A stretch of 64,000 nt of DNA from Parcubacteria group bacterium (GTDB lineage Bacteria > Patescibacteriota > Minisyncoccia > Phycocordibacterales > UBA2135): positions 11,320 to 75,319 of the forward strand of contig JACPBB010000001.1 of the NCBI GenBank assembly GCA_016180525.1. Reading direction: 5' to 3'. Positions 4,716 to 63,531 of the stretch are shown here, one piece after another. A model generated the notes under the pieces. That model was not told where the DNA came from. It saw only the letters and a list, made by a program, of their open reading frames with translations, and ran no database searches. Position numbers and translations under genes: made by a program. Numbering within the stretch: the stretch's first letter is position 1; every line of letters starts with the position of its first letter.

Positions 4716-5668
4716 AATATTTTCAAAATAAAAAAAGATTTCCTATTTTACTATTGTGCTTTATATTTGTGGTCTTAATTTTTTCATATACGCAATTGTT
4801 TCATCCGTGTCTATATTTTGATGAAAATAATATAAAAACCCAAACAGAACGTTGGGGGGACTGTATTGATGTGTGGGGTGGAAAAGTGGCACATGCCTTC
4901 TTTAAACAGACAAACAAAGTGGTTCCTAATCAATACAAACATATTAACGCGCATATGTTTGGCAATGCCCTTTACAACAATTACAGCCTTGAAAAAGCCC
5001 TTCTCTTTTGCGATTACGCGTATTGGGAAGGATGTTTCCATGAGCTTTTGTCTCGAGCATTTTTAGACGGGGGATATTCCACTTTAAAAAATATTGCCGA
5101 AACATGCAAAAAAATACTCTCTAGCACTTATTCTACAACTTGTCTGCATGGTTTTGGACATGGCCTTATTGCTCTTGGGAAATATACAACTGATGACTTG
5201 CGCGAAGCTCTTGATTTTTGTTCTTTACATTTTTCTGATACAGAAGGGAAAAAAGATGCTTCAAGGCGAGGGTCAGATTATTTTGGAAACGAATGTTACC
5301 ATGGTGTATTTATGGAATATAATGAACGTAATATGTTACCGGAGTTAGGTCCCCGAGAATTAGATTTTAAAAATATATATACGCCATGTGATACATTGGA
5401 TTCTGAATACAAGGCAACGTGCTATCACAGGCTCGCTTTTAATCTGTGGCCTCACAACATATCAAACATAAATATTACTGTTAAGTATAATACACTGATA
5501 TCGTGGTGTCGTGACATTCCCCAAAAAGAATACCATTATTCTTGCGTAAGTGGAGTTCGTACTTCGATGTTTTTTGTCCCAGAAATATCCGCAAAAGAAA
5601 AAAAGAAGGTTTTAAACTTAGTAGATGAGGTCCTCCGAGAAGTACGGGCCTTTTCTGCCCCGATCTAA
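4697..5668 (+). CDS. secreted Cys/His-rich family protein (CxHGxGHG motif)
   Basis: N-terminal hydrophobic segment. Motifs CFHELL and TCLHGFGHGLIALG shared with the paralog family. Confidence 0.5.
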   Translation: MLYMITKYFQNKKRFPILLLCFIFVVLIFSYTQLFHPCLYFDENNIKTQTERWGDCIDVWGGKVAHAFFKQTNKVVPNQYKHINAHMFGNALYNNYSLEKALLFCDYAYWEGCFHELLSRAFLDGGYSTLKNIAETCKKILSSTYSTTCLHGFGHGLIALGKYTTDDLREALDFCSLHFSDTEGKKDASRRGSDYFGNECYHGVFMEYNERNMLPELGPRELDFKNIYTPCDTLDSEYKATCYHRLAFNLWPHNISNINITVKYNTLISWCRDIPQKEYHYSCVSGVRTSMFFVPEISAKEKKKVLNLVDEVLREVRAFSAPI

Positions 5669-5688
5669 CCATCTCAAAAATAAGTACT

Positions 5689-7401
5689 TTATTTAGGAAT
5701 TTGCCTTGTATAGATTATCAAATCGCTCTTTTTAATAATATCTATAATTGCTTGACGCGAATATGTATCTTGTAAATCATTTTTAAGAGATATTAACCCG
5801 TTTTTCTCCAGATTTTTTTCTTTATGAGTAATGAGAAATGGAGTGTCTGTAACAATGCTCTTATTAAAACTCAAAAAGGCTGATGATGGTGCGGCGTAGA
5901 AAAGAAACAAATCATGAAAATCAACCTTTACCCCCAATAACGCAAGTGTTGATAAAAATTTGCTATATCCGGTAACGGCAAAGATAAGCTGGTCCACGTA
6001 TGCTGTTTTTGTGCGATAGAGCGTCAACAACCGTTCAATAAACAATAATTCATTTGTATTGAAATTTGTTTTTAAATCTTTTGCTCCATACAAAAAAGAA
6101 AGGGTGTTTAAAAAAATGACGACGTCATCTTGATACACAATCGGAAAAGCTGTTATTTTTTCCTGGAGTTCAGTAATTGTTTTATTGCCCAAAAACCAAT
6201 CATGTTCGGAGAGCAGGGACCGAATTTTAAGAATTGCCATTATCTTTACAAAATCAGTGCCATAATCCGGACAAGAATAGGAAGTTGGTATTGGTTGATA
6301 CAAAAGAGGAAAGGCCGCATTCGTTTTTTCCTGAAGAGCACGCTGAAGCGGCTTTTCTGTATTTTTTGAAATATGAAAATATAGGTCATTTAAAAGAACT
6401 ATTCTCGGGCTGAATTCACTACCGTATTTCTGCGGCATGACAGTGTAATATGCGGGGGTATCTTCAAGAGCACAGGCGCTGCTCCCGAGAACAATGACCG
6501 GCATGGATTCATACCATTGTTTCTCTGTCTCATTAGATACACTGAGTATTGAGTAGTAATTACGAATTAAAGACGCGTTGCTTTTGATAATTTCAGGAAT
6601 ACTATAAAAATTTTCTTGTTCAGATACTTCTTGTGAATTTAAAAAGGGCTGAAAAGAAGCTGATGCTAAAGAACATTTTTTTATATTCCCATTAAAACAC
6701 TTCATTCTATTGTTTCTTTTTTCGTCAATATCGTATGAAGCATTAATCAGAGTATTTAAAAATGTTACATATGTTTCATTTGAAATAGTTCCTGTTGGAA
6801 GAAAAAAATTTTTCTGGTCATGCTCAGCATATATGTGTTTCATTTTTTCAGCGTTTTTGCGATATATCTTAACCGTTCTCTCCAGTAACGCATCGTATGT
6901 TTTGATGTTTTCGACTGAAGGACGTTCCACTACGTCTCTGCGTGCCTTCTCAAGGTCGGCAATTGAATATAAAAAATCAGTCGGGTATAGATTTGACCTT
7001 AAAATTTTTTCCTCTCGTGGATAATAATACCCCGCAAAATTATCAAAAGATTGTTCCATACGAGCGATAGAGTTCCTCAATGTTTCTATGTCAGTTTCCG
7101 GAATAGCAAGAAACGGCTCTACGCGGGTCAAAAGTGAGTAATATCCTGCGCGAAGCGCCACAACTTCGCGCTTAAGAGTAGGAGGCGCCTCAACAAAAAC
7201 AATGCTGCCTTCAGAAATAGTATAGTGTTTCTCGTCTATAACAATTTCAGGAAGAATAAATTGGGCAAGCTCTTTTGAAAAAAACTTTTTTTCTTTTTCC
7301 AACTGAACTGTATTTTTAAATACGCTGACATAAAAAACCAATAATATAAAAAAACTTAGAATTATCGGTATACATACTCGGCGCTTTAACTGATACTTCA
7401 T
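5689..7401 (-). CDS. hypothetical membrane-anchored protein (570 aa)
   Basis: Long ORF with N-terminal TM helix. Last gene of a 4-gene minus-strand string (8738->5689). Confidence 0.45.
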   Translation of the reverse strand: MKYQLKRRVCIPIILSFFILLVFYVSVFKNTVQLEKEKKFFSKELAQFILPEIVIDEKHYTISEGSIVFVEAPPTLKREVVALRAGYYSLLTRVEPFLAIPETDIETLRNSIARMEQSFDNFAGYYYPREEKILRSNLYPTDFLYSIADLEKARRDVVERPSVENIKTYDALLERTVKIYRKNAEKMKHIYAEHDQKNFFLPTGTISNETYVTFLNTLINASYDIDEKRNNRMKCFNGNIKKCSLASASFQPFLNSQEVSEQENFYSIPEIIKSNASLIRNYYSILSVSNETEKQWYESMPVIVLGSSACALEDTPAYYTVMPQKYGSEFSPRIVLLNDLYFHISKNTEKPLQRALQEKTNAAFPLLYQPIPTSYSCPDYGTDFVKIMAILKIRSLLSEHDWFLGNKTITELQEKITAFPIVYQDDVVIFLNTLSFLYGAKDLKTNFNTNELLFIERLLTLYRTKTAYVDQLIFAVTGYSKFLSTLALLGVKVDFHDLFLFYAAPSSAFLSFNKSIVTDTPFLITHKEKNLEKNGLISLKNDLQDTYSRQAIIDIIKKSDLIIYTRQIPK

Positions 7402-21067: not shown

Positions 21068-22403
21068 TTATGCGTGGACCTTGTTCAGTATCTTTAATTT
21101 CAAATCCCAAGTTTTCTATTTCTTTTCGGAGCGTATCCGCAACTGCCCAGTCTTCTTTTTTACGCGCTTCTTCACGTCTTTCTGCGATTTCTAGAACCTC
21201 TGCAGGTATCTCTTCTTTTTTTAGAACTTCAAGACCCAAACCCAATACTGCATCAAACAAAATAAGTGTTTTTTTCTTATCTTTTGGCGCGACAGTTTTA
21301 TCTTTAAGAATATCCCAAACAAGCGCAAGCGCTCGCGGAGTGTCTAGGTTGTCGCCTATATATTGTTTAAATTTTTTAACATGTTTGGCGGATTCTTCTC
21401 CAATATCTTCTCCTAATGCTCTATATTGCTCATAGAGCTTTTTTAGGGCATGTTCACTTGCTTCAAGTGCTTCCCACGTAAAATTAACCTGGGTTCTGTA
21501 ATGGACCTGCAAGAGAAAATATCGATAGGATAGGGGAGTAAACTCTTTTTTTACGATATCGGTAAGTGTCATAATATTTCCTTCCGATTTCGCCATTTTT
21601 TTTCCATCAACAAGTACAAATTCGTTGTGGAGCCAATAACGCGCAAGCGATTTCTCCGTTGCGCCCTCTGATTGCGCGATTTCATTTTCATGGTGGGGGA
21701 ATATGAGGTCTTTGCCGCCCGTGTGAATATCAAATCCTTCTCCGAGATATTTCATAGACATCGCAGAGCATTCAATGTGCCAGCCTGGACGTCCTTTTCC
21801 CAGAGAGGTTTCCCAAAACACATTCCCATCATCCTTGTTCCATGCCTTCCAAAGAACAAAATCTTGCGCGTCTTCCTTTTCATATTCATCATGTACAATG
21901 CGCGCGCCTTGTTTTAATTGAATATTTTTAAGTCCCGCAAGCTCCCCGTATTTTTTAAACGCAGAAATTTTAAAATATACAGAATTATCTTCTCCTTTAT
22001 ACGCAAGCCCACGGCGAAGTAAGGTTTCAATGAGTTCTACCATTTCGTCAATGTGATCAGTTGCTCGAACCAACTTGTGAGGAGTTAAAATGTTTAGCGT
22101 AGCAATATCTTCTTCAAAAAATTTTGTATATCTGTCAGTAAGAGCTCTCAATGAAACACCTTCTTCTTGAGAACGTTTAATTGTTTTGTCATCCACATCG
22201 GTAACATTCATTACTTGTGTAACTTTATAGCCATTCAAAACTAAGGCACGCCTTAAAAGATCCCATGTTGTAAATGAGCGCAAATTGCCAATGTGTGCTC
22301 TCCCATAAACCGTTGGCCCGCAATGATACATTGAAACATGCCCCTTTTTGAGGGGTTTAAACAGCTCTTTTTTTCTGGAGAGTGTGTTGTAGAGATGAAT
22401 CAT
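21057..22403 (-). CDS. cysS: cysteinyl-tRNA synthetase
   Basis: HIGH-type motif HIGNLRSF. KMSKS-type KMAKSEGN. Zinc-binding Cys residues. ~448 aa. Confidence 0.9.
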   Translation of the reverse strand: MIHLYNTLSRKKELFKPLKKGHVSMYHCGPTVYGRAHIGNLRSFTTWDLLRRALVLNGYKVTQVMNVTDVDDKTIKRSQEEGVSLRALTDRYTKFFEEDIATLNILTPHKLVRATDHIDEMVELIETLLRRGLAYKGEDNSVYFKISAFKKYGELAGLKNIQLKQGARIVHDEYEKEDAQDFVLWKAWNKDDGNVFWETSLGKGRPGWHIECSAMSMKYLGEGFDIHTGGKDLIFPHHENEIAQSEGATEKSLARYWLHNEFVLVDGKKMAKSEGNIMTLTDIVKKEFTPLSYRYFLLQVHYRTQVNFTWEALEASEHALKKLYEQYRALGEDIGEESAKHVKKFKQYIGDNLDTPRALALVWDILKDKTVAPKDKKKTLILFDAVLGLGLEVLKKEEIPAEVLEIAERREEARKKEDWAVADTLRKEIENLGFEIKDTEQGPRITKK

Positions 22404-22485
22404 AGGCGTTAGGCGTTAGGCGTTAGGCGTTAGGCAATCTCAATATTATTCCTAGTGCCTAATGCCTAGCTGCCAGTGCCTAAAC
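22404..22485. repeat. intergenic 7-nt-periodic palindromic element (ggcgtta x4 ... cctagtg/cctaatg arm)
   Basis: Tandem heptamers ggcgttaggcgttaggcgttaggc followed by cctagtgcctaatgcctagctgccagtgcctaa, between cysS and the corA-like gene. Confidence 0.6.
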
Positions 22486-24738: not shown

Positions 24739-24811
24739 CCTTTAGGCACTAGGCTCTAGGAAAAATTAAAAAACCTAACGCCTAAAGTCTGACGCCTAAA
24801 GCCTAAAACCT
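24739..24811. repeat. intergenic 7-nt-periodic palindromic element
   Basis: gcctttaggcactaggctctagg - A-rich spacer - cctaacgcctaaagtctgacgcctaaagcctaaaacc, between the ctpA-like gene and rplI. Confidence 0.55.
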
Positions 24812-25255
24812 ATGAAAGTTATCTTATTACAAGATGTCCCTAAGGTGGGAAAAAAATATGAAGTGAAGGAGGTAAAAAACGGCCTTGCCCGTAATTTTCT
24901 TATTCCTAAAAAACTCGTGGAAATAGCAACCGCCGGAACTCTGAAAAAACTAGAAATTTTTAAAGAAAAAAATAAACAGGAGGAAGAAGAAAAAAATAAA
25001 GCACTACGTGACACACTCTCTGCATTAAGCAATAAAACAATTACCATAACCGTACGCGCGGGAGATATGGGGAGCCTTTTTGCTAAAATTACAGCAAAAG
25101 ATATAGCGAACGCAATTAAAAAAGAATATAACGTTAACCTTCCGGAAGAATTAATTATCTTGGAGGAGCCAATTAAAAAAATAGGGGAGTACGATATTGT
25201 GGCGGAAGTAGGGGAGAAAAAAGAAAAATTAAAAGTTGTTATAAAGGCGATATAA
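24812..25255 (+). CDS. rplI: 50S ribosomal protein L9
   Basis: MKVILLQDVPKVGKKYEVKEVKNGLARNFLIPKKLV matches the L9 N-domain consensus. 147 aa. Confidence 0.85.
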   Translation: MKVILLQDVPKVGKKYEVKEVKNGLARNFLIPKKLVEIATAGTLKKLEIFKEKNKQEEEEKNKALRDTLSALSNKTITITVRAGDMGSLFAKITAKDIANAIKKEYNVNLPEELIILEEPIKKIGEYDIVAEVGEKKEKLKVVIKAI

Positions 25256-36054: not shown

Positions 36055-37162
36055 TCCGAATTGCCTCTCGAGCGATTTTTAAAGCCGCGTCTTTTCTAAA
36101 AAACCCCTGTGCTTGTTTTTTCATTTCCTCCTGAAGGGCGCTGTTTTCCATAATCCGATTTATTTCCGAAAGTAACAAATGGGGAGTTAAATTTTTTTCT
36201 TCCATGACAATCGCCGCCCCAGAGCGAGCATAATTAAAAGCATTCTTCCGCTGATGGTCTCCATTCGATTTTGTTATTGGAACAATGATAGACGGAAGCC
36301 CCCATGAAGCAATTTCAAAAATAGTTGAGCCGGCACGTGATATAACGAGAGAAGCAACCCCAGCGGACATCCGAAGAGCAAGGGTGTGTAAATATCCAAA
36401 TGGTTTGTAGCGCCCAGTTTCGAGCCCCCCTTCTTTTAGAATCGCGAATGACATTTGCTCAGCGTTTTTTATATGAGCAACTCCTGTTTGATGAATTAGT
36501 TGATATTTTCCTATAAGCTGTGGGAGAGCATCCAGTATGACATTATTTATAATTTCAGCGCCCTGTGAACCGCCGAGAACAAGTATAACGGGAATATGTT
36601 CTTCAAGTTTGAGATATTCATATGCCCCTTCTTTAATTGGATTAGCAATATCTCTCCGTACAGGCTGCCCCACAACTGCAGTTTTTTCCTTTGGAAAGAA
36701 AGATGCCGCGCTATCCCACGAAACAGCAATCCGCTCTGCGAATTTACCGGCCCATATATTGCTCCTTCCTGGAATAGCGTCTGACTCATGGATGATAATT
36801 GGAATCCGAAAGATACGCGCCGCAAAAACGACGGGAACGCTCGCATATCCGCCCTTGCTGATTACGACGTCAGGATACAGATTGAATAATTTAAAAAGCG
36901 CCTGAATTGTACCAAGACAAAGTATAAACACGTCTATAATATTGAGCACGGAAAGATAACGTCTTAATTTACCGGAAAAAACGTGTTTAAAAGTGATGTT
37001 ATTTTCAAACAATGCTTTTTTATCAAACGGAGAAACCGACATATAAAAAATTTCCGGGTGCAAGAGTTTTTCCGTTTCAGCAATCTTATGTAACTCTTCC
37101 GCAATGGCGATAAGAGGGTAGAAATGTCCGGCAGTGCCTCCGCCGGTTAAAACAATTTTCAT
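36032..37162 (-). CDS. murG: UDP-N-acetylglucosamine--N-acetylmuramyl-(pentapeptide) pyrophosphoryl-undecaprenol N-acetylglucosamine transferase
   Basis: MKIVLTGGGTAGHFYPLIAIAEEL N-terminal G-loop plus the characteristic GT-B C-domain. Located in the dcw cluster context. Confidence 0.8.
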   Translation of the reverse strand: MKIVLTGGGTAGHFYPLIAIAEELHKIAETEKLLHPEIFYMSVSPFDKKALFENNITFKHVFSGKLRRYLSVLNIIDVFILCLGTIQALFKLFNLYPDVVISKGGYASVPVVFAARIFRIPIIIHESDAIPGRSNIWAGKFAERIAVSWDSAASFFPKEKTAVVGQPVRRDIANPIKEGAYEYLKLEEHIPVILVLGGSQGAEIINNVILDALPQLIGKYQLIHQTGVAHIKNAEQMSFAILKEGGLETGRYKPFGYLHTLALRMSAGVASLVISRAGSTIFEIASWGLPSIIVPITKSNGDHQRKNAFNYARSGAAIVMEEKNLTPHLLLSEINRIMENSALQEEMKKQAQGFFRKDAALKIAREAIRIALKHEK

Positions 37163-37230
37163 AGGCTTTAGGCTTTAGGCTTTAGGGATTAGGGATTACA
37201 TATTTTTCCTAACGCCTAGCGCCTAGTGCC
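37163..37230. repeat. intergenic 7-nt-periodic palindromic element between ftsW and murG
   Basis: ggctttaggctttaggctttagggattaggg - spacer - cctaacgcctagcgcctagtgcc. The arm ends 1 nt from the murG start codon. Confidence 0.6.
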
Positions 37231-38325
37231 TTAATTTTTACAATATCGAGATATATTCAAAATAATTCCCGAGCCAATAAACGTGAGAAGTAATGCTGTT
37301 CCTCCATGACTTATGAACGGAAGCGGTAGACCGGTGAGAGGAAAAATGGCGAGCATTGACCCAATGTTTAAAAACGCTTGGCCTGTTATAAGTATAACAA
37401 TTCCCACAACAGCGAGTCTAGAAAAATAATCAGGAGCTCTGTTCGCAATTTGAAATCCTCGTATCGCAAAAAACACAAATAGCAAAATGATAACGAGGGC
37501 GCCAATAAGACCGAATTCTTCCGCGGCGACTGCAAAAATTGAGTCGGAAATAGGCTCCGGTAAATACGTAAATTTTTGAACTCCATGCCCAAATCCCCTA
37601 CCCCATAATCCTCCGGAGCCAACAGCGATGAGTGCTTGCCCTATCTGCCAGCCAGCCCCCTGCACGTCGCTCCATGGGTTTATAAAAGTCAAAATACGCT
37701 CCGCCACATACGGCCGCGTATAAGCAAGCACGGTAAGTCCGACAATTGCCATAACGACAAGCGCGGCGATGTCCCGGAGACGAGCTCCGCTTGCAAAAAA
37801 TATTCCCACTGCGGCGGCAAGCATGACCGCAAGTGTTCCTGTATCCGGCTGTTTTAATAATATAAAACACACAATTCCCAAAAAAATAAAAAGTGGCAAA
37901 AGTCCGTAGGCAATTGTTTGTACCTTGAGACGAACGCCTGAAAACCACGCGGCAAGATAAAGCACCAATCCTAACTTTAATAACTCCGCTGGCTGAAACG
38001 AAAACGAACCAATCTCTACCCACCGAGACGCTCCTTTTAAGGTAAGCCCAATATCGGGAACAAAAACTAAAAGAGTCAGAATAATAGATGCAAGAAAAAT
38101 ATAGAATGAGTATTTTTTCCAAATTTTATAATTAATTTTTGAAACCAAAAAAAGCAGCGCGAGACCTGGTAAAAGCCCCAAAAAAACCTGATTAAAAATA
38201 ATTGATGACATCTTCGCTCCTTCTTCACGCGCAAGAAGGCCAAACGACGCAGAGAGAAAAATAAGAAATCCCCCTCCGGCAAGAAGCAATACGAGTGACA
38301 GAAACCATAGGTCAATTTTGTTCAT
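37231..38325 (-). CDS. ftsW: SEDS family peptidoglycan polymerase (FtsW/RodA)
   Basis: ~10 TM helices. Conserved SEDS segments. Position between murG and mraY. Confidence 0.7.
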   Translation of the reverse strand: MNKIDLWFLSLVLLLAGGGFLIFLSASFGLLAREEGAKMSSIIFNQVFLGLLPGLALLFLVSKINYKIWKKYSFYIFLASIILTLLVFVPDIGLTLKGASRWVEIGSFSFQPAELLKLGLVLYLAAWFSGVRLKVQTIAYGLLPLFIFLGIVCFILLKQPDTGTLAVMLAAAVGIFFASGARLRDIAALVVMAIVGLTVLAYTRPYVAERILTFINPWSDVQGAGWQIGQALIAVGSGGLWGRGFGHGVQKFTYLPEPISDSIFAVAAEEFGLIGALVIILLFVFFAIRGFQIANRAPDYFSRLAVVGIVILITGQAFLNIGSMLAIFPLTGLPLPFISHGGTALLLTFIGSGIILNISRYCKN

Positions 38326-38406
38326 AGGCGTTAGGCGTTAGGCGTTAGGCGTTAGGCGTTTTAGGATTTTAATTTTCCTAGAGCCTAGTGTCCTAGTGCC
38401 TAGAGC
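38326..38406. repeat. intergenic 7-nt-periodic palindromic element between mraY and ftsW
   Basis: ggcgttagg x5 - spacer - cctagagcctagtgtcctagtgcctagagcc. Confidence 0.6.
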
Positions 38407-39459: not shown

Positions 39460-39530
39460 GATACTAGGCTTTAGGCTTTAGGCTTTAGGAATTTCGTTTT
39501 TTCTAATGCCTAGCGCCTAGTGCCTCAATA
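39460..39530. repeat. intergenic 7-nt-periodic palindromic element immediately upstream of mraY, at the host-side edge of the GC-rich cassette
   Basis: ctaggctttaggctttaggctttagg - aatttcgttttttc - taatgcctagcgcctagtgcc. Confidence 0.6.
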
Positions 39531-39603: not shown

Positions 39604-39648
39604 TAAAAAAAGCCCCCCGAGCTACCGCGTAAGCAGTAGCATCGGGGG
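39604..39648 (-). terminator. intrinsic terminator downstream of the 566-aa GC-rich gene
   Basis: Minus-strand reading: cccccgatgctactgcttacgcggtagctcggggggc followed by ttttttt. Confidence 0.6.
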
Positions 39649-39717
39649 ACGTAGTTTGCTCTCCTCAAGAGTATTTCTCAACTAAAGAGGAGAAAAGAAC
39701 ATTGCCTTGTCGGACCG

Positions 39718-41418
39718 TTAGGCGTGGGCGTGGACCGTTGCGGCCTTCTTCGCCTTGGCCTTGCCCTTCTTGGCCTTCGGCTTGGGCGCGTCGGCGACCG
39801 CTTCGGTGGGAACTTCCTCGGGCTTCGAGGGAGTCTCCGGCGTGGCGGTCTTCTCGGCGGAGCGCCTGGCGATCTTGCCGAGCTCCCGAACGATCTTCTT
39901 GAACTCGTTCGGGTCCGTGAGAAGCGCCTTGTGCTTCTCCGGATACTCGACGGCCGTGATATCGCCGCCAGCTTCCGCGCGCGAGGCGAGGAAGTGGACC
40001 TGGAAGTGCTTCTTGCCCTTGCTGTCCCTCCAGGGGAACTTGATGAAGGAGTAGGACATGCCGGCCTTCGCGGGTTCGCCGAAGAAGTCCCCGAAGGAAA
40101 CGTTGGCCTTGCTGTTGTAGTTGTCCTTCTCCGTCTTGTACGCTTCATGTGCGTCTTCCTGCTTCTGGGCGCACTTGAACGCCCAGGAAAGCCGGCGGTA
40201 CAAGTCCTTCAAATTGCCGAACTCGTGCTGGTTGGGCACGAAGTAAGGCAACTCGAGATAGAACTTGTCCAGATCCTGGAGGGACTCCAGGGGAATCGCC
40301 CACGGGGCGATGCGGTGGCCGCGGTCGGAAACCGGCGAAGCGAGCGACGTCAAGGCCTCGGAGAGGGTCTGATAGACGACCTTTTCATAGCCTTCGCCGT
40401 CGTTCGGATACTCCATCGCCTTGCCGTCGACGACCTGAGGACCTTCGCGGGTAGGCGGTACAAGCGAGACGAAGATGCCCGTGTAGGGAACCTTGTTCCC
40501 GTCCTTGTCCTTCGACATGCGCGTGTCTTCAAACGCGCAGAGAAGGGCGCCGCCTTCGTGGGTCACGAATCGGACTTTCTTGTCCTGTGTGCCCCCCTTT
40601 TGCCGCGGGAACCAAACGTAGCAGGTTGCCGCTGGCACTTGCCGTGGCTTGCCGTCCTTGTCTCGACGTATGACGGTGGTCGTGAGATCTTTCTTGGTCA
40701 CCGAGCGGAACTCGGAGACCCACTTGACCGTCGCCTGGTTGCGAAACGCTGCGGACCCATCCTTGGTGTCGGCGCGGGAGACGAAGTATGCCCCGCGCGC
40801 CTTCTCCGAGAGGAGCATGAGAATGTTGAGGTCATAGACCTCGTTCTCGTACTCCTTGGTCGCGCCGATCCACGTGCCGTTGACCAAGGCGCCGATCGGG
40901 AGCTTCTCCTTGGAGGCGAAGATGATGTTTCGCTCCAAGCCGAACTGATTCATCCGTTCCGCCACGCTCGCAAGAGCACCATCCGGAACGATTTGGCCGA
41001 GCATCGCGGCGAGAAAATGAACTCCCGCCGTATGCATGAACCGGTCCTTCTGATCCCCAACGAAATTCTTGGCGTCGGGGAAAACGTCGACGTCGGCGTC
41101 ACAGAAGCGCTCGGCGGTCTTGACCATCTCCTCGGCGGAATGTCCCGCCTGAAGAAGCGCTGCCGCCTTCGTGGCGTACAGCGCGACGAATTCGGGAACC
41201 TGCGTCATGAGGGTGTTGAAAGCGCCCTCGTTTGCCGCTTGTTCCTCGGGCGTGGACTGGATCGTTGGCAGCGTGAAGCCGCCTGTCTTGGTGGTCTGCA
41301 TGGCTTTCGCCTCCTTGTGGTTGCCGTTTGGTTTTGACTCGTCAGGACGCCGAGTCACCTTGATGCCCTTTGCCTCCAGCGCTTGCTGGGTTTGGGGGTT
41401 GATGATCTCACCAGTCAT
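39718..41418 (-). CDS. hypothetical protein (566 aa) with C-terminal Lys/Ala/Pro-rich histone-H1-like tail; GC-rich, foreign composition
   Basis: ~60% GC, AAG/GCC codons. C-terminus PKPKAKKGKAKAKKAATVHAHA. Own -10-like TATAAT upstream and a hairpin + T-tract terminator downstream (39604..39648). Confidence 0.55.
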   Translation of the reverse strand: MTGEIINPQTQQALEAKGIKVTRRPDESKPNGNHKEAKAMQTTKTGGFTLPTIQSTPEEQAANEGAFNTLMTQVPEFVALYATKAAALLQAGHSAEEMVKTAERFCDADVDVFPDAKNFVGDQKDRFMHTAGVHFLAAMLGQIVPDGALASVAERMNQFGLERNIIFASKEKLPIGALVNGTWIGATKEYENEVYDLNILMLLSEKARGAYFVSRADTKDGSAAFRNQATVKWVSEFRSVTKKDLTTTVIRRDKDGKPRQVPAATCYVWFPRQKGGTQDKKVRFVTHEGGALLCAFEDTRMSKDKDGNKVPYTGIFVSLVPPTREGPQVVDGKAMEYPNDGEGYEKVVYQTLSEALTSLASPVSDRGHRIAPWAIPLESLQDLDKFYLELPYFVPNQHEFGNLKDLYRRLSWAFKCAQKQEDAHEAYKTEKDNYNSKANVSFGDFFGEPAKAGMSYSFIKFPWRDSKGKKHFQVHFLASRAEAGGDITAVEYPEKHKALLTDPNEFKKIVRELGKIARRSAEKTATPETPSKPEEVPTEAVADAPKPKAKKGKAKAKKAATVHAHA

Positions 41419-41509
41419 GGTGATTTCCTTTCTTTCTGTCTGTAGTTGTCAAGGTCTTAAAGGGTTTTTCCGTACAAAAAACGTACACCCTCTTCGTACT
41501 AATTGTTAT

Positions 41510-41563
41510 TATAGCAAAAAAGAAAGGCCCTGTCAAGTACCTTTCTAGGTTCCTGACAGGGCC
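41510..41563 (-). terminator. hairpin + T-tract after the 211-aa cassette gene, also containing a -10-like element for the 566-aa gene
   Basis: Minus-strand reading: ggccctgtcaggaacctagaaaggtacttgacagggcc tttctttttt gctataataacaa. Confidence 0.5.
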
Positions 41564-41588: not shown

Positions 41589-42224
41589 TTAATCATCCCA
41601 CCGTCGCCGGGGATCAGCTTCCAACTTAGACATGTGCTCGGGAAGAAAAGACAGGCTTCCGACTTCACGAACGGAGACAACGATATCTCCGTCCTCATCT
41701 TTTGCTTCAATGAACATTGCGCGATGCTCGTCACCCAACTGTATTTTCACAAAAACAGGATTGAAAATGCCATCTTTGCCAGGATAGGCAAGGGGCTGAA
41801 GCGTTTCTGTCGCCCATCCTTTCTTACTTGTCCTTACCATATCGTGCATTGAGAAGCCGAACGGAAATCGCTCTGTTGCTCCTTTTCGTCCGCAGATCAT
41901 GAAGTGACGCGGGTTCTTCCGCTGTAACAACAGCCAATGAAGCGGCTGTGCGAGAGCGCGGCGTGCCCCTGGAAAAGTGATATTCGTTTCCTCTCCGCTG
42001 AACACACGCCCCGGTATGTATGAATATGCAGGAAGCGCGACGTGCACAACCGGCTTACCCTTGTTGCTTCCATGCACTACTAAGTTTGTTTTGAGTGCTT
42101 CAAGTTCCTTGGTCCAATCTGAAAGTTCTGAAGAGAGCGGAAGGTCAAAATTAAGTTGAAAAGCGATTCTCAAAAACGGTGCATCCACCCCAATGGGGTA
42201 GAATTTCCGAGTTTCATTCGTCAT
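41589..42224 (-). CDS. hypothetical protein (211 aa), middle gene of the GC-rich cassette
   Basis: ORF with ~50% GC. Start overlaps the stop of the upstream nuclease gene (ATGA). Followed by a hairpin terminator at 41510..41563. Confidence 0.45.
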   Translation of the reverse strand: MTNETRKFYPIGVDAPFLRIAFQLNFDLPLSSELSDWTKELEALKTNLVVHGSNKGKPVVHVALPAYSYIPGRVFSGEETNITFPGARRALAQPLHWLLLQRKNPRHFMICGRKGATERFPFGFSMHDMVRTSKKGWATETLQPLAYPGKDGIFNPVFVKIQLGDEHRAMFIEAKDEDGDIVVSVREVGSLSFLPEHMSKLEADPRRRWDD

Positions 42225-43690
42225 ATTCCGACCTCCGTTCCATGCTTGGGATAGGCAAACCGTTCGCTGTCCTTGCCCGTAAGATATCGCGTTGCTTGCG
42301 AGAACTCGGCGTGAACAACAACGATTCGTTTGGGAGAGAGCATGTCCACCATGCGCTCAAACTCCCCCTCTTCCTGGTGAGAAGAGGTCGCGAGTCGGTG
42401 CACCTCGCACCGCACTTCATATGTGTCATGCCCGATTTCTATCGTGCATGGATCCGAACTAGCTCCAATACTAACCTCTTCAGCGGCACCATGACGATGC
42501 GCAAGTAAGGCTGTACCGGGCGAACAGGGGTCTTGCCAATTATTGATGACAAACGAGACGTCTGCGTGTTCCACGCCACGAGTAAGCCACCAATGAGCGG
42601 GGCTTCGGTCGGGAAACATGCCTCCGGCAGCAACAACAATCGCATGCCGGCTGCGAAGCACTTCTTCACGCTCCCGCTTGCCGTGGATAAACGTGAGGTT
42701 CTCAAGCAGATGCTGCTGCTCCGGTTCTAAACACTCTTTGAATATTTGAAGCGCCCTGTCTCCGCCATCAATATAGAGCTTTGCGACCTTTTCAAGGCCG
42801 GCATTGCGAATCCGTGCAATGTTGTCCGGCTCACGATGGATGGAAAGCGACGGTACCACCACAATCCCTCCACGGTTAAGTGTCCCGAGAAAACTGTCGC
42901 TCTCAAGGAAACCCTCAACGGGAGTTTCAAGCGGATCCGGAATTTTGCCCAAATTGGTACCATCCGGAATCAACATGTCTATTTTAATGTCAGGACGCAC
43001 TGCGCCCCTGATGAAAATCTGGTCTTTATCGGACGTGTCCCCTGTCGCAAGCACACGGGCCTCTCCGCCATTTGAAAGCTTCTGGCAGAAAAGAAACGAA
43101 GCCGCGCCAAGAATATGCCCTGCCGGAATTACAACCATTGTGAGGGTGGGATTCAACTCAATCATCTCACCAAAGTGTATAATTCGCACATACTCTTCAA
43201 GCGTATCAATATCGTGTTCATCAAAAAGCGGCTGATGACCTTTCCAGTCAGGATTCCGCTTCATTGAATTAACTGTCTGGGTTAACTGATGTTTCGTAAA
43301 TCGCCACGCGGGCCCCGTCATCCAAATACGCAACGAGTCTGGCGTAAGAGACGGGTTTGCCGCGAGCATTAACTTAAACTGAAGCGCAAGCGCTCCGATA
43401 TGGTCAAGATGAGCGTGGGTAATTACAATATCTCGTATCCCCATAAGTGCACCGATGTTTTTGTACAAAACATGGGGAAGTGCTTTCTTGTATGTCTCTG
43501 GTGCCCACGAAACGCGTGGCCGAGTTCCAGATTCAAGCTGAACTTCATATCCTAAAAAGTTCAGAACATATAAAGCTGCTCCAATTTCACGAACTGCGCC
43601 GTACCCAGTGAAAGAAATATCACGCGGGGAGGGAGCCCGAGTTCGGTTCATTTTGTACATCTTTCGTTTAGCTATTCTGTGTGGTGTCAT
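42221..43690 (-). CDS. metallo-beta-lactamase fold nuclease of the beta-CASP family (RNase J/CPSF73/SNM1-like)
   Basis: N-terminal GYGAVREIGAALYVLNFLGYEVQLESG. Motif 2 VITHAHLDHIGAL. Beta-CASP-like AGHILGAASF. C-terminal VVVHAE. First gene of the GC-rich cassette. Confidence 0.6.
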   Translation of the reverse strand: MTPHRIAKRKMYKMNRTRAPSPRDISFTGYGAVREIGAALYVLNFLGYEVQLESGTRPRVSWAPETYKKALPHVLYKNIGALMGIRDIVITHAHLDHIGALALQFKLMLAANPSLTPDSLRIWMTGPAWRFTKHQLTQTVNSMKRNPDWKGHQPLFDEHDIDTLEEYVRIIHFGEMIELNPTLTMVVIPAGHILGAASFLFCQKLSNGGEARVLATGDTSDKDQIFIRGAVRPDIKIDMLIPDGTNLGKIPDPLETPVEGFLESDSFLGTLNRGGIVVVPSLSIHREPDNIARIRNAGLEKVAKLYIDGGDRALQIFKECLEPEQQHLLENLTFIHGKREREEVLRSRHAIVVAAGGMFPDRSPAHWWLTRGVEHADVSFVINNWQDPCSPGTALLAHRHGAAEEVSIGASSDPCTIEIGHDTYEVRCEVHRLATSSHQEEGEFERMVDMLSPKRIVVVHAEFSQATRYLTGKDSERFAYPKHGTEVGI

Positions 43691-43866
43691 TTCGTCCTTC
43701 CTGCTGTTGTTTTAAGCCAGAATTGGCCTAATTTTTTTCAATGTTCCATTCAATGCTTATAATACTACATTACTATAAAAAAGTCAACCCCGATAATATT
43801 ATCAGCAAGGACGATCGTCAGGCTTCTAAAGAAGTCTCAACACCATCGAAGTGTCCATTTCACATT

Positions 43867-46571: not shown

Positions 46572-47903
46572 TTATTCCGACAAAAGTGTGTCTATGCGAT
46601 TTATCTCCCGCGGAAAGAGGGTTGCTTCTTTGACATTTTCCAAATTCAAAAGCCGGGCTGTAATACGCTCAAGCCCTGTTGAACAGCCACCGTGCGGAGG
46701 CATGCCGTATTTAAACGCCTGAAGGTAAAAGCTGAACGTATCAGGGTCAAGCCCCTTTTCGCGGATTCTTCGCACCAGTTCATCAAAATCATGCACCCGC
46801 TGGCTGCCGCTGTTTATTTCAAGTCCGCGAAATAGTAAATCAAAACTCTTTGAATACGCCTTATCTTTTTCATCAATGTATGTATAAAAAGGCCGCTTTG
46901 CTGTTGGAAAATGCGTTATAAACACAAAATCAGAGCCGTGTTTTTCTTTTGCCCACCTGCATATTTCTCGTTCTTCTTCTGGGTTGATGTCAGGTTCATT
47001 ATTACACTGCATTCCTCGCTCGTTTTCCAATATCTTCTGCGCTTCCCGCAACGTAAGGCGGGGAAATCGCTCCGGCATAAGCGGGGCGTCTGTTTTAAAG
47101 CGAGAAAAAATGGAGGCATGTTTTTCAGAAACAGAAGAAACAATGCTGCGGATTGTTTTTTCAAGAACATTCATCACGTCTTCGTGGTCTTTAATAAAAC
47201 CCATTTCAAAATCCATCTGCACCACTTCGCTTAAATGTCGGGTCGTTGCATGTTTCTCTGCTCTGAATATTTTTGCTGTCGTAAACACCCGTTCAAAAAC
47301 GCCCACCATCATTTGTTTGTAAAGCTGTGGGCTTGTCGCAAGAAATGCCTTTTTGTCATTAAAATAATCTACCTGAAACGCGGATGCTCCTCCCTCGGCA
47401 TCGCCTCCAACAATAACAGGGTTTTGATACTCAATAAACCCCTCTTCGGACATTGCGTTACGAAAAGCAGCAATTACGGAGGCCTGAAGAGTAAAGATGT
47501 CACGGGCCCTCTCTGTGCGAAGCGTAAGCGGCAAATGGTTTAAATATGTGTCTAAATTAAGTTCTGCGTTTTTTTCAAAAGGCAGTTCGTGAGCCTGGCT
47601 TAATACCACAACCTCTTTTGCCTCTAACTCAATATCCCCAGTATCAATATCGGGATTTATCATATTGTCAGGACGCTTTTTGACCGCGCCTCCTATCCGC
47701 ACTACCCATTCAGGGCGGCATTCTTTAAGCGCCTCATACGCCTTCTCTTGTTTGGGAGAAACAACGACCTGCACAATACCCGTCTTGTCCCGCAGATCAA
47801 TAAAAATGAGTTTTCCGTGGTCACGGCGAACATCAACCCATCCAGCAACAGTTGCCTCCTTCCCAACATAGTTTTTTAATTCATTTATATAAATTCGTTC
47901 CAT
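46572..47903 (-). CDS. aspS: aspartyl-tRNA synthetase, archaeal/short type (possibly non-discriminating; an AsnRS call cannot be excluded)
   Basis: N-terminal OB anticodon-binding domain (VAGWVDVRRDHGKLIFIDLRD). Class II motifs including FRGLEINSGSQR and GMPPHGGCSTGLERI. 443 aa. Confidence 0.7.
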   Translation of the reverse strand: MERIYINELKNYVGKEATVAGWVDVRRDHGKLIFIDLRDKTGIVQVVVSPKQEKAYEALKECRPEWVVRIGGAVKKRPDNMINPDIDTGDIELEAKEVVVLSQAHELPFEKNAELNLDTYLNHLPLTLRTERARDIFTLQASVIAAFRNAMSEEGFIEYQNPVIVGGDAEGGASAFQVDYFNDKKAFLATSPQLYKQMMVGVFERVFTTAKIFRAEKHATTRHLSEVVQMDFEMGFIKDHEDVMNVLEKTIRSIVSSVSEKHASIFSRFKTDAPLMPERFPRLTLREAQKILENERGMQCNNEPDINPEEEREICRWAKEKHGSDFVFITHFPTAKRPFYTYIDEKDKAYSKSFDLLFRGLEINSGSQRVHDFDELVRRIREKGLDPDTFSFYLQAFKYGMPPHGGCSTGLERITARLLNLENVKEATLFPREINRIDTLLSE

Positions 47904-55457: not shown

Positions 55458-55538
55458 GTTACTAGGCTTTAGGCTTTAGGCTTTAGGCTTTAGGAATCGT
55501 TGTTTTTTCCTAGTGCCTAGCGCCTTAACGCCTAGTGC
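55458..55538. repeat. intergenic 7-nt-periodic palindromic element between rpoA and rplQ
   Basis: ctaggctttagg x4 - aatcgttgttttttc - ctagtgcctagcgccttaacgcctagtgcc. Confidence 0.6.
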
Positions 55539-57815: not shown

Positions 57816-57902
57816 GATACTAGGCTTTAGGCTTTAGGCTTTAGGCTTTAGGAATATTATTATTTCTTCCTAGTGCCTAGTGCCTAATGTCTAGTCCCTG
57901 AA
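57816..57902. repeat. intergenic 7-nt-periodic palindromic element between rpsM and rpsK
   Basis: ctaggctttagg x4 - aatattattatttcttc - ctagtgcctagtgcctaatgtctagtccc. Confidence 0.6.
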
Positions 57903-58283: not shown

Positions 58284-58374
58284 GATACTAGGCTTTAGGC
58301 TTTAGGCTTTAGGCTTTAGGAATATCATTGCTTTCTCCCTAGCGCCTAGTGCCTAATGTCTAGTGCCTGAATTA
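58284..58374. repeat. intergenic 7-nt-periodic palindromic element between rpmJ and rpsM
   Basis: ctaggctttagg x4 - aatatcattgctttctcc - ctagcgcctagtgcctaatgtctagtgcc. Near-identical to the 57816 copy. Confidence 0.6.
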
Positions 58375-62463: not shown

Positions 62464-63531
62464 ATGCTAATTTCGTTAAGGCTAAAACAACAGGAGTTAC
62501 GAGCAATGGACAACAGGGTTTTGGTACGTTTTTGGGGAGTGCGCGGCAGCGTCCCCTCACCCTTAACCGCACACGACGTTGCGAGAAAGAAGCTTAAAAT
62601 TCTTGAGGATTATGTTGCTGCAATGAGGTCAGGACGTTACAGCCCAATGCCGACACCGCAAAGCTTTCTTGCGGAGCAGGAACGAGAGACCCCTTCAACA
62701 TACGGCGGTAACACATCTTGCGTTGAGGTGCGATATGAAAACGATATCGTAATTCTTGATATGGGTACGGGGCTTCGGCCACTTGGTAACACGCTTTTCC
62801 CGGAAATGTTCGCACGCAAGGGTTTGGAAGCATACTTTGTTCTTTCCCATGTTCACTGGGACCATATTCAGGGTTTGCCGTTTTTCGGGCCACTATACGT
62901 AAATAAAGCAATTGGTATTTCTAACCGCTGGACATTCCTCGGAGGAGTGGGGTGGCAAAGTACTGCTGAAATATGTCTTAAAGGACAGATGGATCCGCCC
63001 ACATTTCCCGTTGCGTGGAAAGAAATTGAAAAAATGACTGACAATATTACTTATGACGACATGTGGGATGGAAAAAGTGTAAAACTCGGTCAGGCAACAG
63101 CCAGATTTGGAAAACTCAACCATCCGCAGGAAACATACGGCTCCCGCCTACTCTTTCCAAATGGAAAAATTGTTGTATACGCAACCGATCATGAGCCGCA
63201 TGATCCGGCCTGTCCTTATCCACGTTTGGTGTCTCTCGCTCGTGACGCGGATGTGGTTATCACTGATTGCCAATATACAAAAGGACAATATGAGGGCGCT
63301 AAAGAAGAGGGTGGAGTGCCGCGCCACGGATGGGGTCACTCATATCCCGAAGCGATTGCGGCAATGGCGTGTGAGGCAAATGTGAAAACGATTGTTTTGT
63401 TTCACCACGATCCAGCATCGTCAGATGAAAAAATTAAACAGATGGAACAGTATACTCAAAAACTCATTTCTAGCAAAGGGGGAAAAAGCAAGGTTGTTGC
63501 GGCATGGGAAGGTCTTGAGCTTAATCTATAA
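62464..63531 (+). CDS. MBL-fold metallo-hydrolase (true start possibly the Met at ~62506)
   Basis: HxHxDH motif LSHVHWDHIQGLPFFGP. Downstream His/Asp residues (ATDHEPHD, FHHD). Confidence 0.6.
   Translation: MLISLRLKQQELRAMDNRVLVRFWGVRGSVPSPLTAHDVARKKLKILEDYVAAMRSGRYSPMPTPQSFLAEQERETPSTYGGNTSCVEVRYENDIVILDMGTGLRPLGNTLFPEMFARKGLEAYFVLSHVHWDHIQGLPFFGPLYVNKAIGISNRWTFLGGVGWQSTAEICLKGQMDPPTFPVAWKEIEKMTDNITYDDMWDGKSVKLGQATARFGKLNHPQETYGSRLLFPNGKIVVYATDHEPHDPACPYPRLVSLARDADVVITDCQYTKGQYEGAKEEGGVPRHGWGHSYPEAIAAMACEANVKTIVLFHHDPASSDEKIKQMEQYTQKLISSKGGKSKVVAAWEGLELNL

What the first reader, a model, noticed from the sequence alone, without database searches (positions are those of the whole stretch)
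42221..43690. Beta-CASP metallo-beta-lactamase nuclease as the lead gene of the foreign cassette
The 489-aa product has the MBL HxHxDH-type motif (VITHAHLDHIGAL). It also has an N-terminal G-rich beta-strand block (GYGAVREIGAALYVLNFLGYEVQLESG), a GHxLGAA-type beta-CASP motif (AGHILGAASF) and a C-terminal VVVHAE. These are the hallmarks of the RNase J / CPSF73 / SNM1-Artemis clade, which act on RNA or DNA ends. Finding it translationally coupled to an unknown 211-aa protein, inside a laterally acquired island, points to a nucleic-acid processing or defence role rather than housekeeping RNase J. The host would be expected to carry its own low-GC RNase J elsewhere.
Basis: partly seen in the sequence, partly recalled or inferred. 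Interest (0 to 1): 0.55.

Follow-up and report, generated by a model that had tools for sequence, protein, structure and literature searches.

The report
CPSF73-like RNase module in Paceibacterota
The gene is a real, intact RNA-cutting enzyme of the CPSF73/FttA type (not RNase J), and it leads a rare, fast-evolving gene module of unknown role found at one fixed chromosomal spot in a small clade of ultra-small (CPR) bacteria.

Summary
The ORF is real: 42221-43690 on the minus strand, 489 aa, with every quoted motif present. A profile of seven cassette MBLs aligns end to end with aCPSF1/FttA, CPSF73 and INTS11 (155-196 bits). RNase J matches only the first ~100 residues, and SNM1/Artemis does not match. 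All metal-ligand and beta-CASP residues are invariant.

The 211-aa gene (S) is translationally coupled to it (GGAGG plus an ATGA overlap). The 566-aa gene (B) is a separate unit with a 12/12 consensus promoter and its own terminator.

The 'recent foreign island' reading is only partly right. In 65 of 73 related species dac abuts mraY. The cassette fills that junction across one Paceibacterota host clade, in at least three deeply diverged types. It has no integrase, tRNA or att repeats.

The GC anomaly is mainly B's own GC3 (0.72-0.88 in every type and host), a conserved family trait. A covarying hairpin whose 3' arm is B's -35 box is the best-conserved element.

S and B match no family, fold, defence or phage model.

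Best reading: an accessory RNA-cleavage module whose KH-less nuclease gets substrate recognition from its partners. Its biological role is unproven.

The parts
43759..43787 (-). Promoter-like site of the MBL-S bicistron (TTGACT-17-TATTAT)
   Evidence: It matches 10 of 12 consensus positions. The same TTGACT, T-rich spacer and TATTAT/TATCAT arrangement is conserved upstream of the MBL gene in L001, L002 and L006. A GGAAGGA Shine-Dalgarno precedes the ATG at 43690.
42221..43690 (-). MBL: 489-aa KH-less beta-CASP ribonuclease of the CPSF73/aCPSF1(FttA)/INTS11 type
   Evidence: All seven motifs are present and invariant in seven orthologues. The family profile scores 196 bits to PH1404 aCPSF1 and ~180 to CPSF73, against 28-51 bits (N-terminus only) to RNase J.
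41589..42224 (-). S: 211-aa partner protein, translationally coupled to the MBL, with no known family or fold
   Evidence: The ATGA overlap and GGAGG SD are confirmed. Only 6 cluster representatives exist in 5.8 billion proteins. The AF2 model has pTM 0.75 and is mostly beta. It has no Foldseek match in PDB or BFVD and no Pfam, NCBIfam, PHROG or PADLOC match. A 32%-identical homologue sits in the type B cassette of L029.
41526..41563 (-). Conserved hairpin (GGCCCTGTCA...TGACAGGGCC) followed by a T-tract. It is the intrinsic terminator of MBL-S, and its 3' arm carries the -35 box of the B promoter.
   Evidence: The inverted repeat is I2. The pattern CCTGTC-N(4-34)-GACAGG occurs once in the window (0.03 expected) and once in each of the 11 cassette loci held at that point. 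It occurs in none of the 80 other loci then held: 79 cassette-less mraY or unrelated loci, plus L091, whose hairpin is the compensated variant. In the 11-locus alignment, 94% of cells are paired, 13 cells carry compensatory changes, and 0 of 500 shuffles reach the observed score. L091 carries the compensated GCTTGTC/GACAAGC.
41508..41536 (-). B promoter: TTGACA-17-TATAAT with an extended -10 TG
   Evidence: It matches the consensus at 12 of 12 positions. It is conserved in all cassette types.
39718..41418 (-). B: 566-aa ORFan with a Lys/Ala-rich C-terminal tail and GC3 of 0.81, transcribed as its own unit
   Evidence: Only 4 family representatives plus 1 weak hit turn up among 1.84 billion proteins. 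Type D members link the type A and type C versions (E ~1e-7). All types, including type B, share a C-terminal architecture. The AF2 model is poor (pLDDT 47). The antisense ORF 39724-41337 is a shadow of its codon bias.
39605..39649 (-). Intrinsic terminator of B (CCCCCGA...TCGGGGGG followed by T7)
   Evidence: An equivalent strong terminator follows B in every cassette type.

Best explanation
The finding is the first gene of a module with two transcription units: [promoter - MBL - S] - [terminator hairpin overlapping a consensus promoter] - [B] - terminator.

SHOWN:
- The MBL is a catalytically intact, KH-less beta-CASP enzyme of the CPSF73/aCPSF1(FttA)/INTS11 RNA-cleavage branch.
- S is translationally coupled to it.
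- B is separately and, by its signals, strongly expressed.
- The module is an old accessory locus fixed at the dac|mraY junction of one Paceibacterota clade. It has diversified there into types whose partner proteins are barely or not recognisably related.

INFERRED:
- MBL plus S form an RNA endonuclease / 5'-3' exonuclease complex.
- The enzyme lacks the KH domains of aCPSF1 and the CPSF100/symplekin-type partners of CPSF73. Substrate recognition is therefore supplied in trans by S and by B. B carries nucleic-acid-binding tails: K-rich here, a C2H2 zinc finger in L027. In type D a cold-shock-domain protein sits next door.
- The hairpin stops MBL-S transcription and insulates B's promoter.
- The patchy distribution, rapid divergence and type replacement at a single site point to an accessory, conflict-type or regulatory RNA-cleavage system rather than core RNA turnover.
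For: Enzyme class. KH-less architecture: the alignment starts at residue ~180 of PH1404; the role of the KH domains and partners in aCPSF1/CPSF73 is from PMC3553952. Coupling. Separate strong unit for B. Hairpin conserved and covarying. Site and distribution. Host-clade restriction with interleaved types. Divergence of the partners. Nucleic-acid-binding appendages. Rarity.
Against: - No biochemical or expression data exist. RNA rather than DNA as substrate is inferred from motif C being His, the RMMBL domain and the nearest homologues.
- S and B have no recognisable fold or family, so their roles are conjecture.
- No complex prediction could be run.
- PADLOC and PHROGs give nothing for the partners.
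- A consensus promoter driving B is unusual for defence systems.
- The conserved synteny among housekeeping genes would also fit a lineage-specific housekeeping role.
Confidence: 0.5

Rival explanations
1. It is a lineage-specific housekeeping factor. The MBL would be this clade's FttA/CPSF73-like 3'-end processing or transcription-termination (or RNA-decay) enzyme, embedded in the scp-dac-mraY-ftsW-murG backbone and inherited vertically.
For: - Syntenic position and the same orientation as the housekeeping neighbours across the clade.
- Catalytic residues under purifying selection.
- The closest characterised relatives are termination/3'-end factors that cooperate with U-tracts (PMC7515710 and PMC8716108, titles and abstracts).
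- The module has its own promoters.
Against: - It is absent from the same junction in 71 of 73 related species representatives.
- The partner proteins diverge beyond recognition between types, while the flanking proteins stay 47-83% identical.
- Types A and C are interleaved on the host tree.
- One clade member (L037) carries an unrelated ORF at the junction instead.
Confidence: 0.2
2. One reading: a recently laterally acquired island, flagged by high GC, that encodes a defence system led by the nuclease.
For: - GC of 0.52-0.60 against ~0.40.
- Accessory distribution.
- Rapid divergence and replacement of types at a single site, as in defence islands.
- One type D locus has a large serine recombinase directly upstream of the MBL.
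- Distant similarity to the type VII Cas14 effector.
Against: - The GC excess is mostly B's GC3. It is conserved in all orthologues at 36-45% protein identity and in all types and hosts, so it is not an un-ameliorated import.
- Ribosomal-protein genes and dnaK show no such bias.
- There is no integrase, tRNA, att-like repeat or CRISPR array in the window.
- No PADLOC model matches.
- None of 120 sampled viral pattern loci carries cassette proteins, and no viral relatives were found.
- The Cas14 equivalog scores 62 bits against a cutoff of 800.
Confidence: 0.15
3. A toxin-antidote (addiction-type) pair. The MBL (with or without S) would be a toxic RNase. B, driven by a consensus promoter, would be the abundant neutraliser.
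For: - A nuclease sits next to a separately and strongly expressed partner.
- Insulation by the terminator-promoter hairpin lets B be expressed independently.
- Both evolve fast.
- The module is retained at a single locus despite turnover.
Against: - B (437-612 aa) is far larger than known antitoxins.
- Neither protein has similarity to any TA family.
- The nuclease class is not known as a TA toxin (own knowledge).
- Type C and D cassettes add further genes: NYN-like, CSD and 600-690-aa proteins.
Confidence: 0.1
4. A remnant of an integrated mobile element or virus of CPR bacteria, in which B is an abundant structural or nucleic-acid-packaging protein and the MBL is a processing nuclease.
For: - Serine recombinase next to the type D MBL in L210.
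- The MBL hits the phage family phrog_36352 (1e-9).
- B has strong expression signals and a basic tail.
- B's codon usage is foreign to the host.
Against: - No capsid, portal, terminase or replication genes lie near it.
- No relatives were found on IMG/VR contigs.
- Three genes in stable synteny across a host clade is not what a prophage looks like.
Confidence: 0.05

Closest known systems
aCPSF1 / FttA (archaeal transcription-termination ribonuclease; PDB 3af5, 2ycb, 9bct)
   Same: It is the best-scoring solved relative (196 bits with the family profile), aligned over the whole MBL plus beta-CASP plus C-terminal core. All seven motifs are shared, motif C is His, and the RMMBL domain is present.
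   Different: - It lacks the ~180-residue N-terminal KH-domain region that gives aCPSF1 its site specificity (PMC3553952).
- It scores 83 bits against the equivalog cutoff of 580.
- Motif 1 is Glu rather than Asp in type A.
- It is bacterial (CPR), rare and accessory, whereas aCPSF1 is universal and essential in Archaea.
- It comes with the ORFan partners S and B.
CPSF73 / INTS11 / Ysh1 (eukaryotic 3'-end cleavage endonucleases)
   Same: Full-length profile alignment at 155-180 bits, with the same catalytic motifs. Those enzymes depend on partner subunits, and dependence on partners is inferred here too.
   Different: There is no CPSF100/INTS9-like pseudo-nuclease paralogue and no symplekin/INTS4-like scaffold. 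S and B are unrelated to any of these. The eukaryotic C-terminal domain is absent.
aCPSF2 / COG1236 and bacterial TTHA0252 (core-only beta-CASP RNases, ~420-430 aa)
   Same: The same domain architecture: an MBL plus beta-CASP core with no KH domain. JGI annotates relatives as 'Cft2 family RNA processing exonuclease'. The profile aligns full-length to TTHA0252 (126 bits).
   Different: - It scores lower against TTHA0252 than against aCPSF1/CPSF73.
- Type A has a basic N-terminal extension of ~25 aa and a variable His/acid-rich insert at 400-425.
- It is embedded in a dedicated module with S, the hairpin and B.
Cas14, the beta-CASP effector of type VII CRISPR-Cas (PDB 8yhd, 9j9e)
   Same: A beta-CASP RNase used as an accessory, RNA-targeting effector together with RNA-binding partner proteins. 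There is detectable similarity: NF045584 at 62 bits, and the profile at ~110 bits.
   Different: It is far below the equivalog cutoff of 800. There is no CRISPR array in the window and no Cas7 or Cas5. It lacks the Cas14 C-terminal region.
RNase J (bacterial housekeeping beta-CASP RNase)
   Same: The same superfamily, sharing MBL motifs 1-2.
   Different: Only the first ~100 residues align (28-51 bits). TIGR00649 scores 24 bits against a cutoff of 400. The RNase J C-terminal domain is absent.

Membership tests
beta-CASP metallo-beta-lactamase nucleases | MBL motifs 1-4 (D, HxHxDH, H, D) | tested here: met
   E53 (Asp in types B and C), H92/H94/D96/H97, H192 and D218 are aligned to PH1404. They are invariant in 7 orthologues.
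beta-CASP metallo-beta-lactamase nucleases | beta-CASP motifs A (D/E), B (H) and C (H or V) | tested here: met
   D243 (D/E across orthologues), H438 and H460. The Pfam Beta-Casp model itself is not hit in the window protein, only weakly in P0004, so the domain is divergent.
CPSF73 / aCPSF1 RNA-specific branch | Motif C is His, and the RMMBL (PF07521) RNA-specificity domain is present | tested here: met
   H460 in VVVHAE. RMMBL matches at 424-468 with 33.7 bits against a cutoff of 21.6.
CPSF73 / aCPSF1 RNA-specific branch | Best full-length similarity to members of this branch rather than to RNase J or SNM1 | tested here: met
   With profile A3: aCPSF1 196, CPSF73 ~180, INTS11 ~175, Ysh1 155. 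RNase J scores at most 51 bits, N-terminus only. SNM1/Artemis gives no hit at E<=1e-5.
aCPSF1 (TIGR03675 equivalog) | N-terminal KH domains and a score above the equivalog cutoff | tested here: not met
   The alignment starts at PH1404 residue ~180-185, so no KH region is present. The score is 82.9 bits against a cutoff of 580.
RNase J | A score above the family cutoff and the RNase J C-terminal domain | tested here: not met
   TIGR00649 scores 24 against 400 and NF047419 scores 17 against 820. Only residues ~13-130 align.
SNM1 / Artemis DNA nucleases | Motif C is Val, with similarity to SNM1/PSO2 | tested here: not met
   Motif C is His. There are no SNM1/Artemis chains among the PDB hits.
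Type VII CRISPR-Cas (Cas14) | The Cas14 equivalog score, an adjacent CRISPR array, and Cas7/Cas5 genes | tested here: not met
   NF045584 scores 62 against 800. No array-like repeats are in the window. The neighbours match no Cas or PADLOC model.
Known anti-phage defence systems (PADLOC-DB 2.0) | Any component matching a defence-system model | tested here: not met
   Nothing significant for the MBL, S or B of any type; the only hits are chance-level (E 0.04-0.07).
Integrated mobile element / genomic island | An integrase, a tRNA or att target, and flanking direct repeats | tested here: not met
   No tRNA. No recombinase in the window cassette. The only flanking repeat is a 10-nt exact match that does not recur in other loci. 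One distant type D locus (L210) does have a serine recombinase.
RNA substrate / nuclease activity | Demonstrated cleavage of RNA | not testable with these tools
   This needs biochemistry.

The most novel reading that the evidence does not exclude
B's extreme and universal synonymous bias may be an adaptation that makes its mRNA resistant to the co-encoded nuclease. The bias is GC3 of 0.72-0.88 in hosts of 43-56% GC, with codon choice inverted relative to ribosomal-protein genes, and with fewer A/U runs than synonymous permutations in 10 of 10 genes.

On this reading the module discriminates self from non-self by RNA composition. The MBL-S RNase would attack the A/U-rich transcripts of the host and of any invader, while B continues to be made. 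The terminator-promoter hairpin would keep the two units independent. This would be a new logic for an RNA-targeting conflict system in CPR bacteria.
Probability: 0.1. Interest if true: 0.85.

Novelty: new variant of a known kind. Interest (0 to 1): 0.6.

Why it matters
CPSF73/FttA-type nucleases are the 3'-end cleavage and termination enzymes of eukaryotes and archaea. In bacteria, the KH-less relatives are poorly understood.

Here one is tied to two ORFan partners, a conserved cis element and a fixed chromosomal site. That gives a concrete, testable system in Candidate Phyla Radiation bacteria, whose RNA metabolism and conflict systems are almost unknown. I found no paper combining beta-CASP with Patescibacteria.

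The partner gene also keeps GC3 near 0.8 in every host, which is a clean case of strong selection, or biased conversion, at synonymous sites. It is also a caution for genome scans: a GC spike is not by itself evidence of recent transfer.

Tried and rejected
- **Plus-strand reading:** translating the given coordinates on the plus strand gives only stops, so the gene is on the minus strand.
- **Fold of B:** the AF2 model from 3 sequences is too poor (pLDDT 47), and the Foldseek hits are meaningless.
- **Sequence profiles of B and S against PDB:** nothing.
- **hhalign between the B types:** no signal with shallow profiles. Homology only emerged through the type D intermediates.
- **The hairpin-promoter pattern as a probe on metagenome and viral collections:** Only 2 of 240 loci (L156, L210) were true cassettes, so the motif is not specific outside its context.
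- **Viral-contig searches:** the MBL, B and the MBL alignment found no relatives, and the B alignment was too divergent to search with.
- **Rfam on the cassette:** nothing.
- **Conserved structure in the 5' leaders of the MBL and B genes:** no alignable consensus.
- **Flanking att-like repeats:** a 10-nt match in the window does not recur elsewhere.
- **The antisense 537-aa ORF within B:** rejected as a shadow of B's codon bias. B has only one TTA/CTA/TCA codon, and the promoter, SD and terminator are all on the B strand.
- **High expression as the cause of the GC3:** rejected, because ribosomal-protein genes and dnaK have GC3 of 0.28-0.39.
Full report
OBSERVATION

The ORF at 42221-43690 is real but lies on the minus strand. 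A GGAAGGA Shine-Dalgarno precedes the ATG at 43690.

Pfam finds the RMMBL RNA-specificity domain above its cutoff, plus Lactamase_B. NCBIfam's best partial matches are aCPSF1 (83 bits, cutoff 580) and type VII Cas14 (62 bits, cutoff 800). RNase J models score only 17-24 bits, over the HxHxDH motif alone.

A pairwise alignment to Pyrococcus aCPSF1 (PDB 3af5) places all seven motifs:
- motif 1: E53
- motif 2: H92-x-H94-x-D96-H97
- motif 3: H192
- motif 4: D218
- motif A: D243
- motif B: H438
- motif C: H460

CLASSIFICATION OF THE ENZYME

I aligned seven cassette orthologues that are 26-68% identical. All the metal-ligand and beta-CASP residues are invariant. Only motif 1 varies (Glu in type A, Asp elsewhere), and motif A is D or E.

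The profile of this alignment matches solved structures as follows:
- aCPSF1/FttA: 173-196 bits, full length
- CPSF73: ~180 bits, full length
- INTS11: ~175 bits, full length
- Ysh1: 155 bits, full length
- bacterial TTHA0252: 126 bits
- Cas14: ~110 bits
- RNase J: 28-51 bits, over the first ~100 residues only
- SNM1/Artemis: no hit

So it belongs to the CPSF73/aCPSF1 RNA-cleavage branch. Its architecture is core-only, like aCPSF2/COG1236: the alignment starts at residue ~180 of aCPSF1, after the KH domains. In aCPSF1 the KH domains give site specificity, and CPSF73 needs partner subunits (PMC3553952). A KH-less enzyme therefore plausibly depends on partner proteins.

THE MODULE

The stop codon of the MBL overlaps the start of the 211-aa gene (S) in an ATGA, with GGAGG 8 nt upstream. 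The same 4-nt overlap is kept in L001, L002, L006 and L029.

Between S and the 566-aa gene (B) lies an inverted repeat at 41526-41563 followed by a T-tract. Its 3' arm contains TTGACA, and 17 nt later comes TATAAT with an extended -10 TG. This is a 12/12 consensus promoter. B is followed by a strong intrinsic terminator. B is therefore its own, probably strongly expressed, unit.

This hairpin, T-tract and -10 arrangement is present in every cassette type. The core pattern occurs once in the window (0.03 expected) and once in each of the 11 cassette loci held at that point. It occurs in none of the 80 other loci then held; L091, a cassette locus, carries the compensated variant instead. Across 11 loci, 94% of cells pair (26-48% when the partner is slid), 13 cells carry compensatory changes, and 0 of 500 shuffles reach the observed score. 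L091 has the compensated GCTTGTC/GACAAGC. Outside this context the pattern is not specific: only 2 of 240 pattern-matched public loci were true cassettes.

WHERE IT SITS, AND WHETHER IT IS FOREIGN

The host is a Parcubacteria/Paceibacterota MAG. The backbone aspS-scpA-scpB-dac-mraY-ftsW-murG is widely conserved. Of 80 species-representative loci found with MraY, 73 have dac upstream of mraY. Among these:
- 65 have a gap under 400 nt
- 6 have a gap of 0.4-1.2 kb
- 2 (L027, L029) have an insertion over 1.5 kb, and in both the insertion is a cassette

At least three types occupy this junction:
- Type A: the window, L002-5 and L006/7. L001 is also type A, but there prfA rather than dac lies upstream.
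- Type B: L029.
- Type C: L027 and L088/89.

The MBLs are 26-31% identical between types, against 47-83% for the flanking proteins.

On a MraY+FtsW+MurG NJ tree, the cassette-bearing genomes form one clade with a single cassette-less member, L037. L037 carries an unrelated 193-aa ORF at the junction. Types A and C are interleaved within the clade.

The window has no integrase, no tRNA and no recurrent flanking repeat, and no viral relatives were found. So the cassette is accessory and clade-restricted but old. It is not a recent import.

THE GC ANOMALY

GC3 is 0.81 for B, 0.48-0.49 for the MBL and S, and 0.33-0.42 for the flanks. Ribosomal-protein genes (0.28-0.35) and dnaK (0.39) do not share the bias.

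B's GC3 is 0.72-0.88 in all ten B genes examined, in hosts with locus GC of 0.43-0.56. It always far exceeds the neighbours.

Codon choice is inverted relative to the flanks:
- AAG: 93% in B against 26% in the flanks
- TTC: 90% against 12%
- ATC: 83% against 14%

The bias is uniform along the gene. A/T 5-mers are fewer than in synonymous permutations in 10 of 10 genes, although each gene individually is only 0.1-2 sd below the mean. The long antisense ORF is a by-product of this bias.

The cause is unexplained. Candidates are selection on the mRNA (for example, resistance to an A/U-directed RNase) and GC-biased conversion at a recombination hot spot.

THE PARTNERS

S has 6 cluster representatives in 5.8 billion proteins. 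Its AF2 model is usable (pTM 0.75, mostly beta). It has no fold or family match.

B has 4 representatives plus one weak hit in 1.84 billion proteins. That weak hit, P0131, led to a fourth type. Type D comprises L091 (which encodes P0009), L092, L156 and L210. It has an MBL, the hairpin and a B of 437-489 aa; where the contig extends far enough, a cold-shock-domain protein (L091, L092, L156) and then a 600-690-aa protein (L091, L156) follow. In L210 a large serine recombinase lies upstream.

The type D B proteins match the C-terminal domains of both type A (E ~3e-7) and type C (E ~2e-7) B proteins. All types share a C-terminal architecture. B is therefore one hyper-divergent superfamily.

B carries nucleic-acid-binding appendages: a Lys/Ala-rich tail here and a C2H2 zinc finger in L027. 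The type C cassette in L088 also has a weakly NYN-like 218-aa protein. Nothing matches PADLOC or PHROGs.

INTERPRETATION

Shown:
- an intact CPSF73/FttA-type beta-CASP enzyme
- translational coupling to S
- an insulated, strongly signalled B unit
- a conserved, covarying terminator/promoter hairpin
- a fixed locus with rapid, type-level turnover within one host clade

Inferred:
- The MBL, with S, cleaves RNA.
- S, B and, in type D, the CSD protein supply substrate recognition.
- The role is accessory: conflict-type or regulatory.

The rivals are a lineage-specific housekeeping termination/processing factor, a recently acquired defence island, a toxin-antidote pair, and a mobile-element remnant. 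They are weighed in the rivals section. No paper in the library links beta-CASP enzymes with Patescibacteria, and one review mentions CPR MBL-fold proteins in general.

VERDICT

Novelty: a new variant of a known enzyme kind, embedded in an undescribed module. Interest: 0.6.

Noticed in passing
window 22403-22435, 24770-24812, 37162-37193, 38325-38360, 39465-39489, 55463-55494, 57821-57852, 58289-58320 (partner arrays at 22451, 38377, 57869, 58338): Perfect heptamer tandem arrays (TAGGCTT/TAGGCGT, 3.6-5 copies) directly abut the start codons of many host genes: cysS, murG, ftsW, mraY and several ribosomal-protein genes. Their mRNA leaders therefore read (AAGCCUA)n-AUG. The arrays are often paired with a nearby CCTAGTG/CCTAGAG array that could base-pair with them. 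The cassette genes lack them and use ordinary Shine-Dalgarno sites, and the orthologous intergenic regions of L002 and L006 lack them too.
   Followed up: partly
window 39718-41418 (-) and orthologues L001:7639-9291, L002:10780-12531, L006:10001-11656, L029:6284-7840, L027:5997-7835, L088:8702-10336, L091:9359-10693, L156:1289-2758, L092:206-1519: The large partner gene keeps GC3 of 0.72-0.88 and a codon usage inverted relative to its neighbours in every host, although the proteins are at most 45% identical. It also has fewer A/T 5-mers than synonymous permutations in 10 of 10 genes. The cause is unexplained.
   Followed up: yes
window 39724-41337 (+): A 537-aa antisense ORF lies inside the 566-aa gene. 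It is a shadow ORF, open because the sense gene has only one TTA/CTA/TCA codon. Equivalent long antisense ORFs appear in L027 and L029.
   Followed up: yes
L210:2287-3822 (+), upstream of the MBL at 4750-6327: A large serine recombinase (Resolvase, Recombinase and Zn-ribbon domains) sits directly upstream of, and co-directional with, a type D cassette. This is the only hint of mobility in any cassette locus.
   Followed up: partly
L091:10902-11675, L092:1701-2510, L156:2943-3722; L091:11805-13631, L156:3832-5901: Type D cassettes carry two further conserved genes after B. One is a 257-269-aa protein with a C-terminal cold-shock domain (37-41% identical to each other). The other is an unknown protein of 600-690 aa.
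   Followed up: partly
L037:7318-7899 (+): The only cassette-less genome inside the cassette-bearing host clade has an unrelated 193-aa ORFan at the same dac|mraY junction. The junction is therefore a variable spot in this clade.
   Followed up: partly
window 46572-47903 (-) and relatives: The window's AspRS is the archaeal-type non-discriminating aspartate-tRNA(Asn) ligase (492 bits). Relatives with the same backbone split into two classes, at 45-73% and ~22-37% identity. This implies that two different aspS types occupy the same syntenic slot.
   Followed up: no
window 62464-63531 (+): This is the only other HxHxDH protein in the window: a 355-aa MBL-fold protein with weak RNase Z / cyclic-nucleotide phosphodiesterase similarity, far below the cutoffs. 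No RNase J is in the window.
   Followed up: partly
L092:1560-1625 and L156:2830-2900: Other intergenic regions of these genomes also place a terminator hairpin directly against a TTGAC(A/T) -35 box, with the T-tract serving as the spacer. Compact terminator-promoter fusion may therefore be a general design in these small genomes, beyond the cassette-specific CCTGTC/GACAGG version.
   Followed up: no
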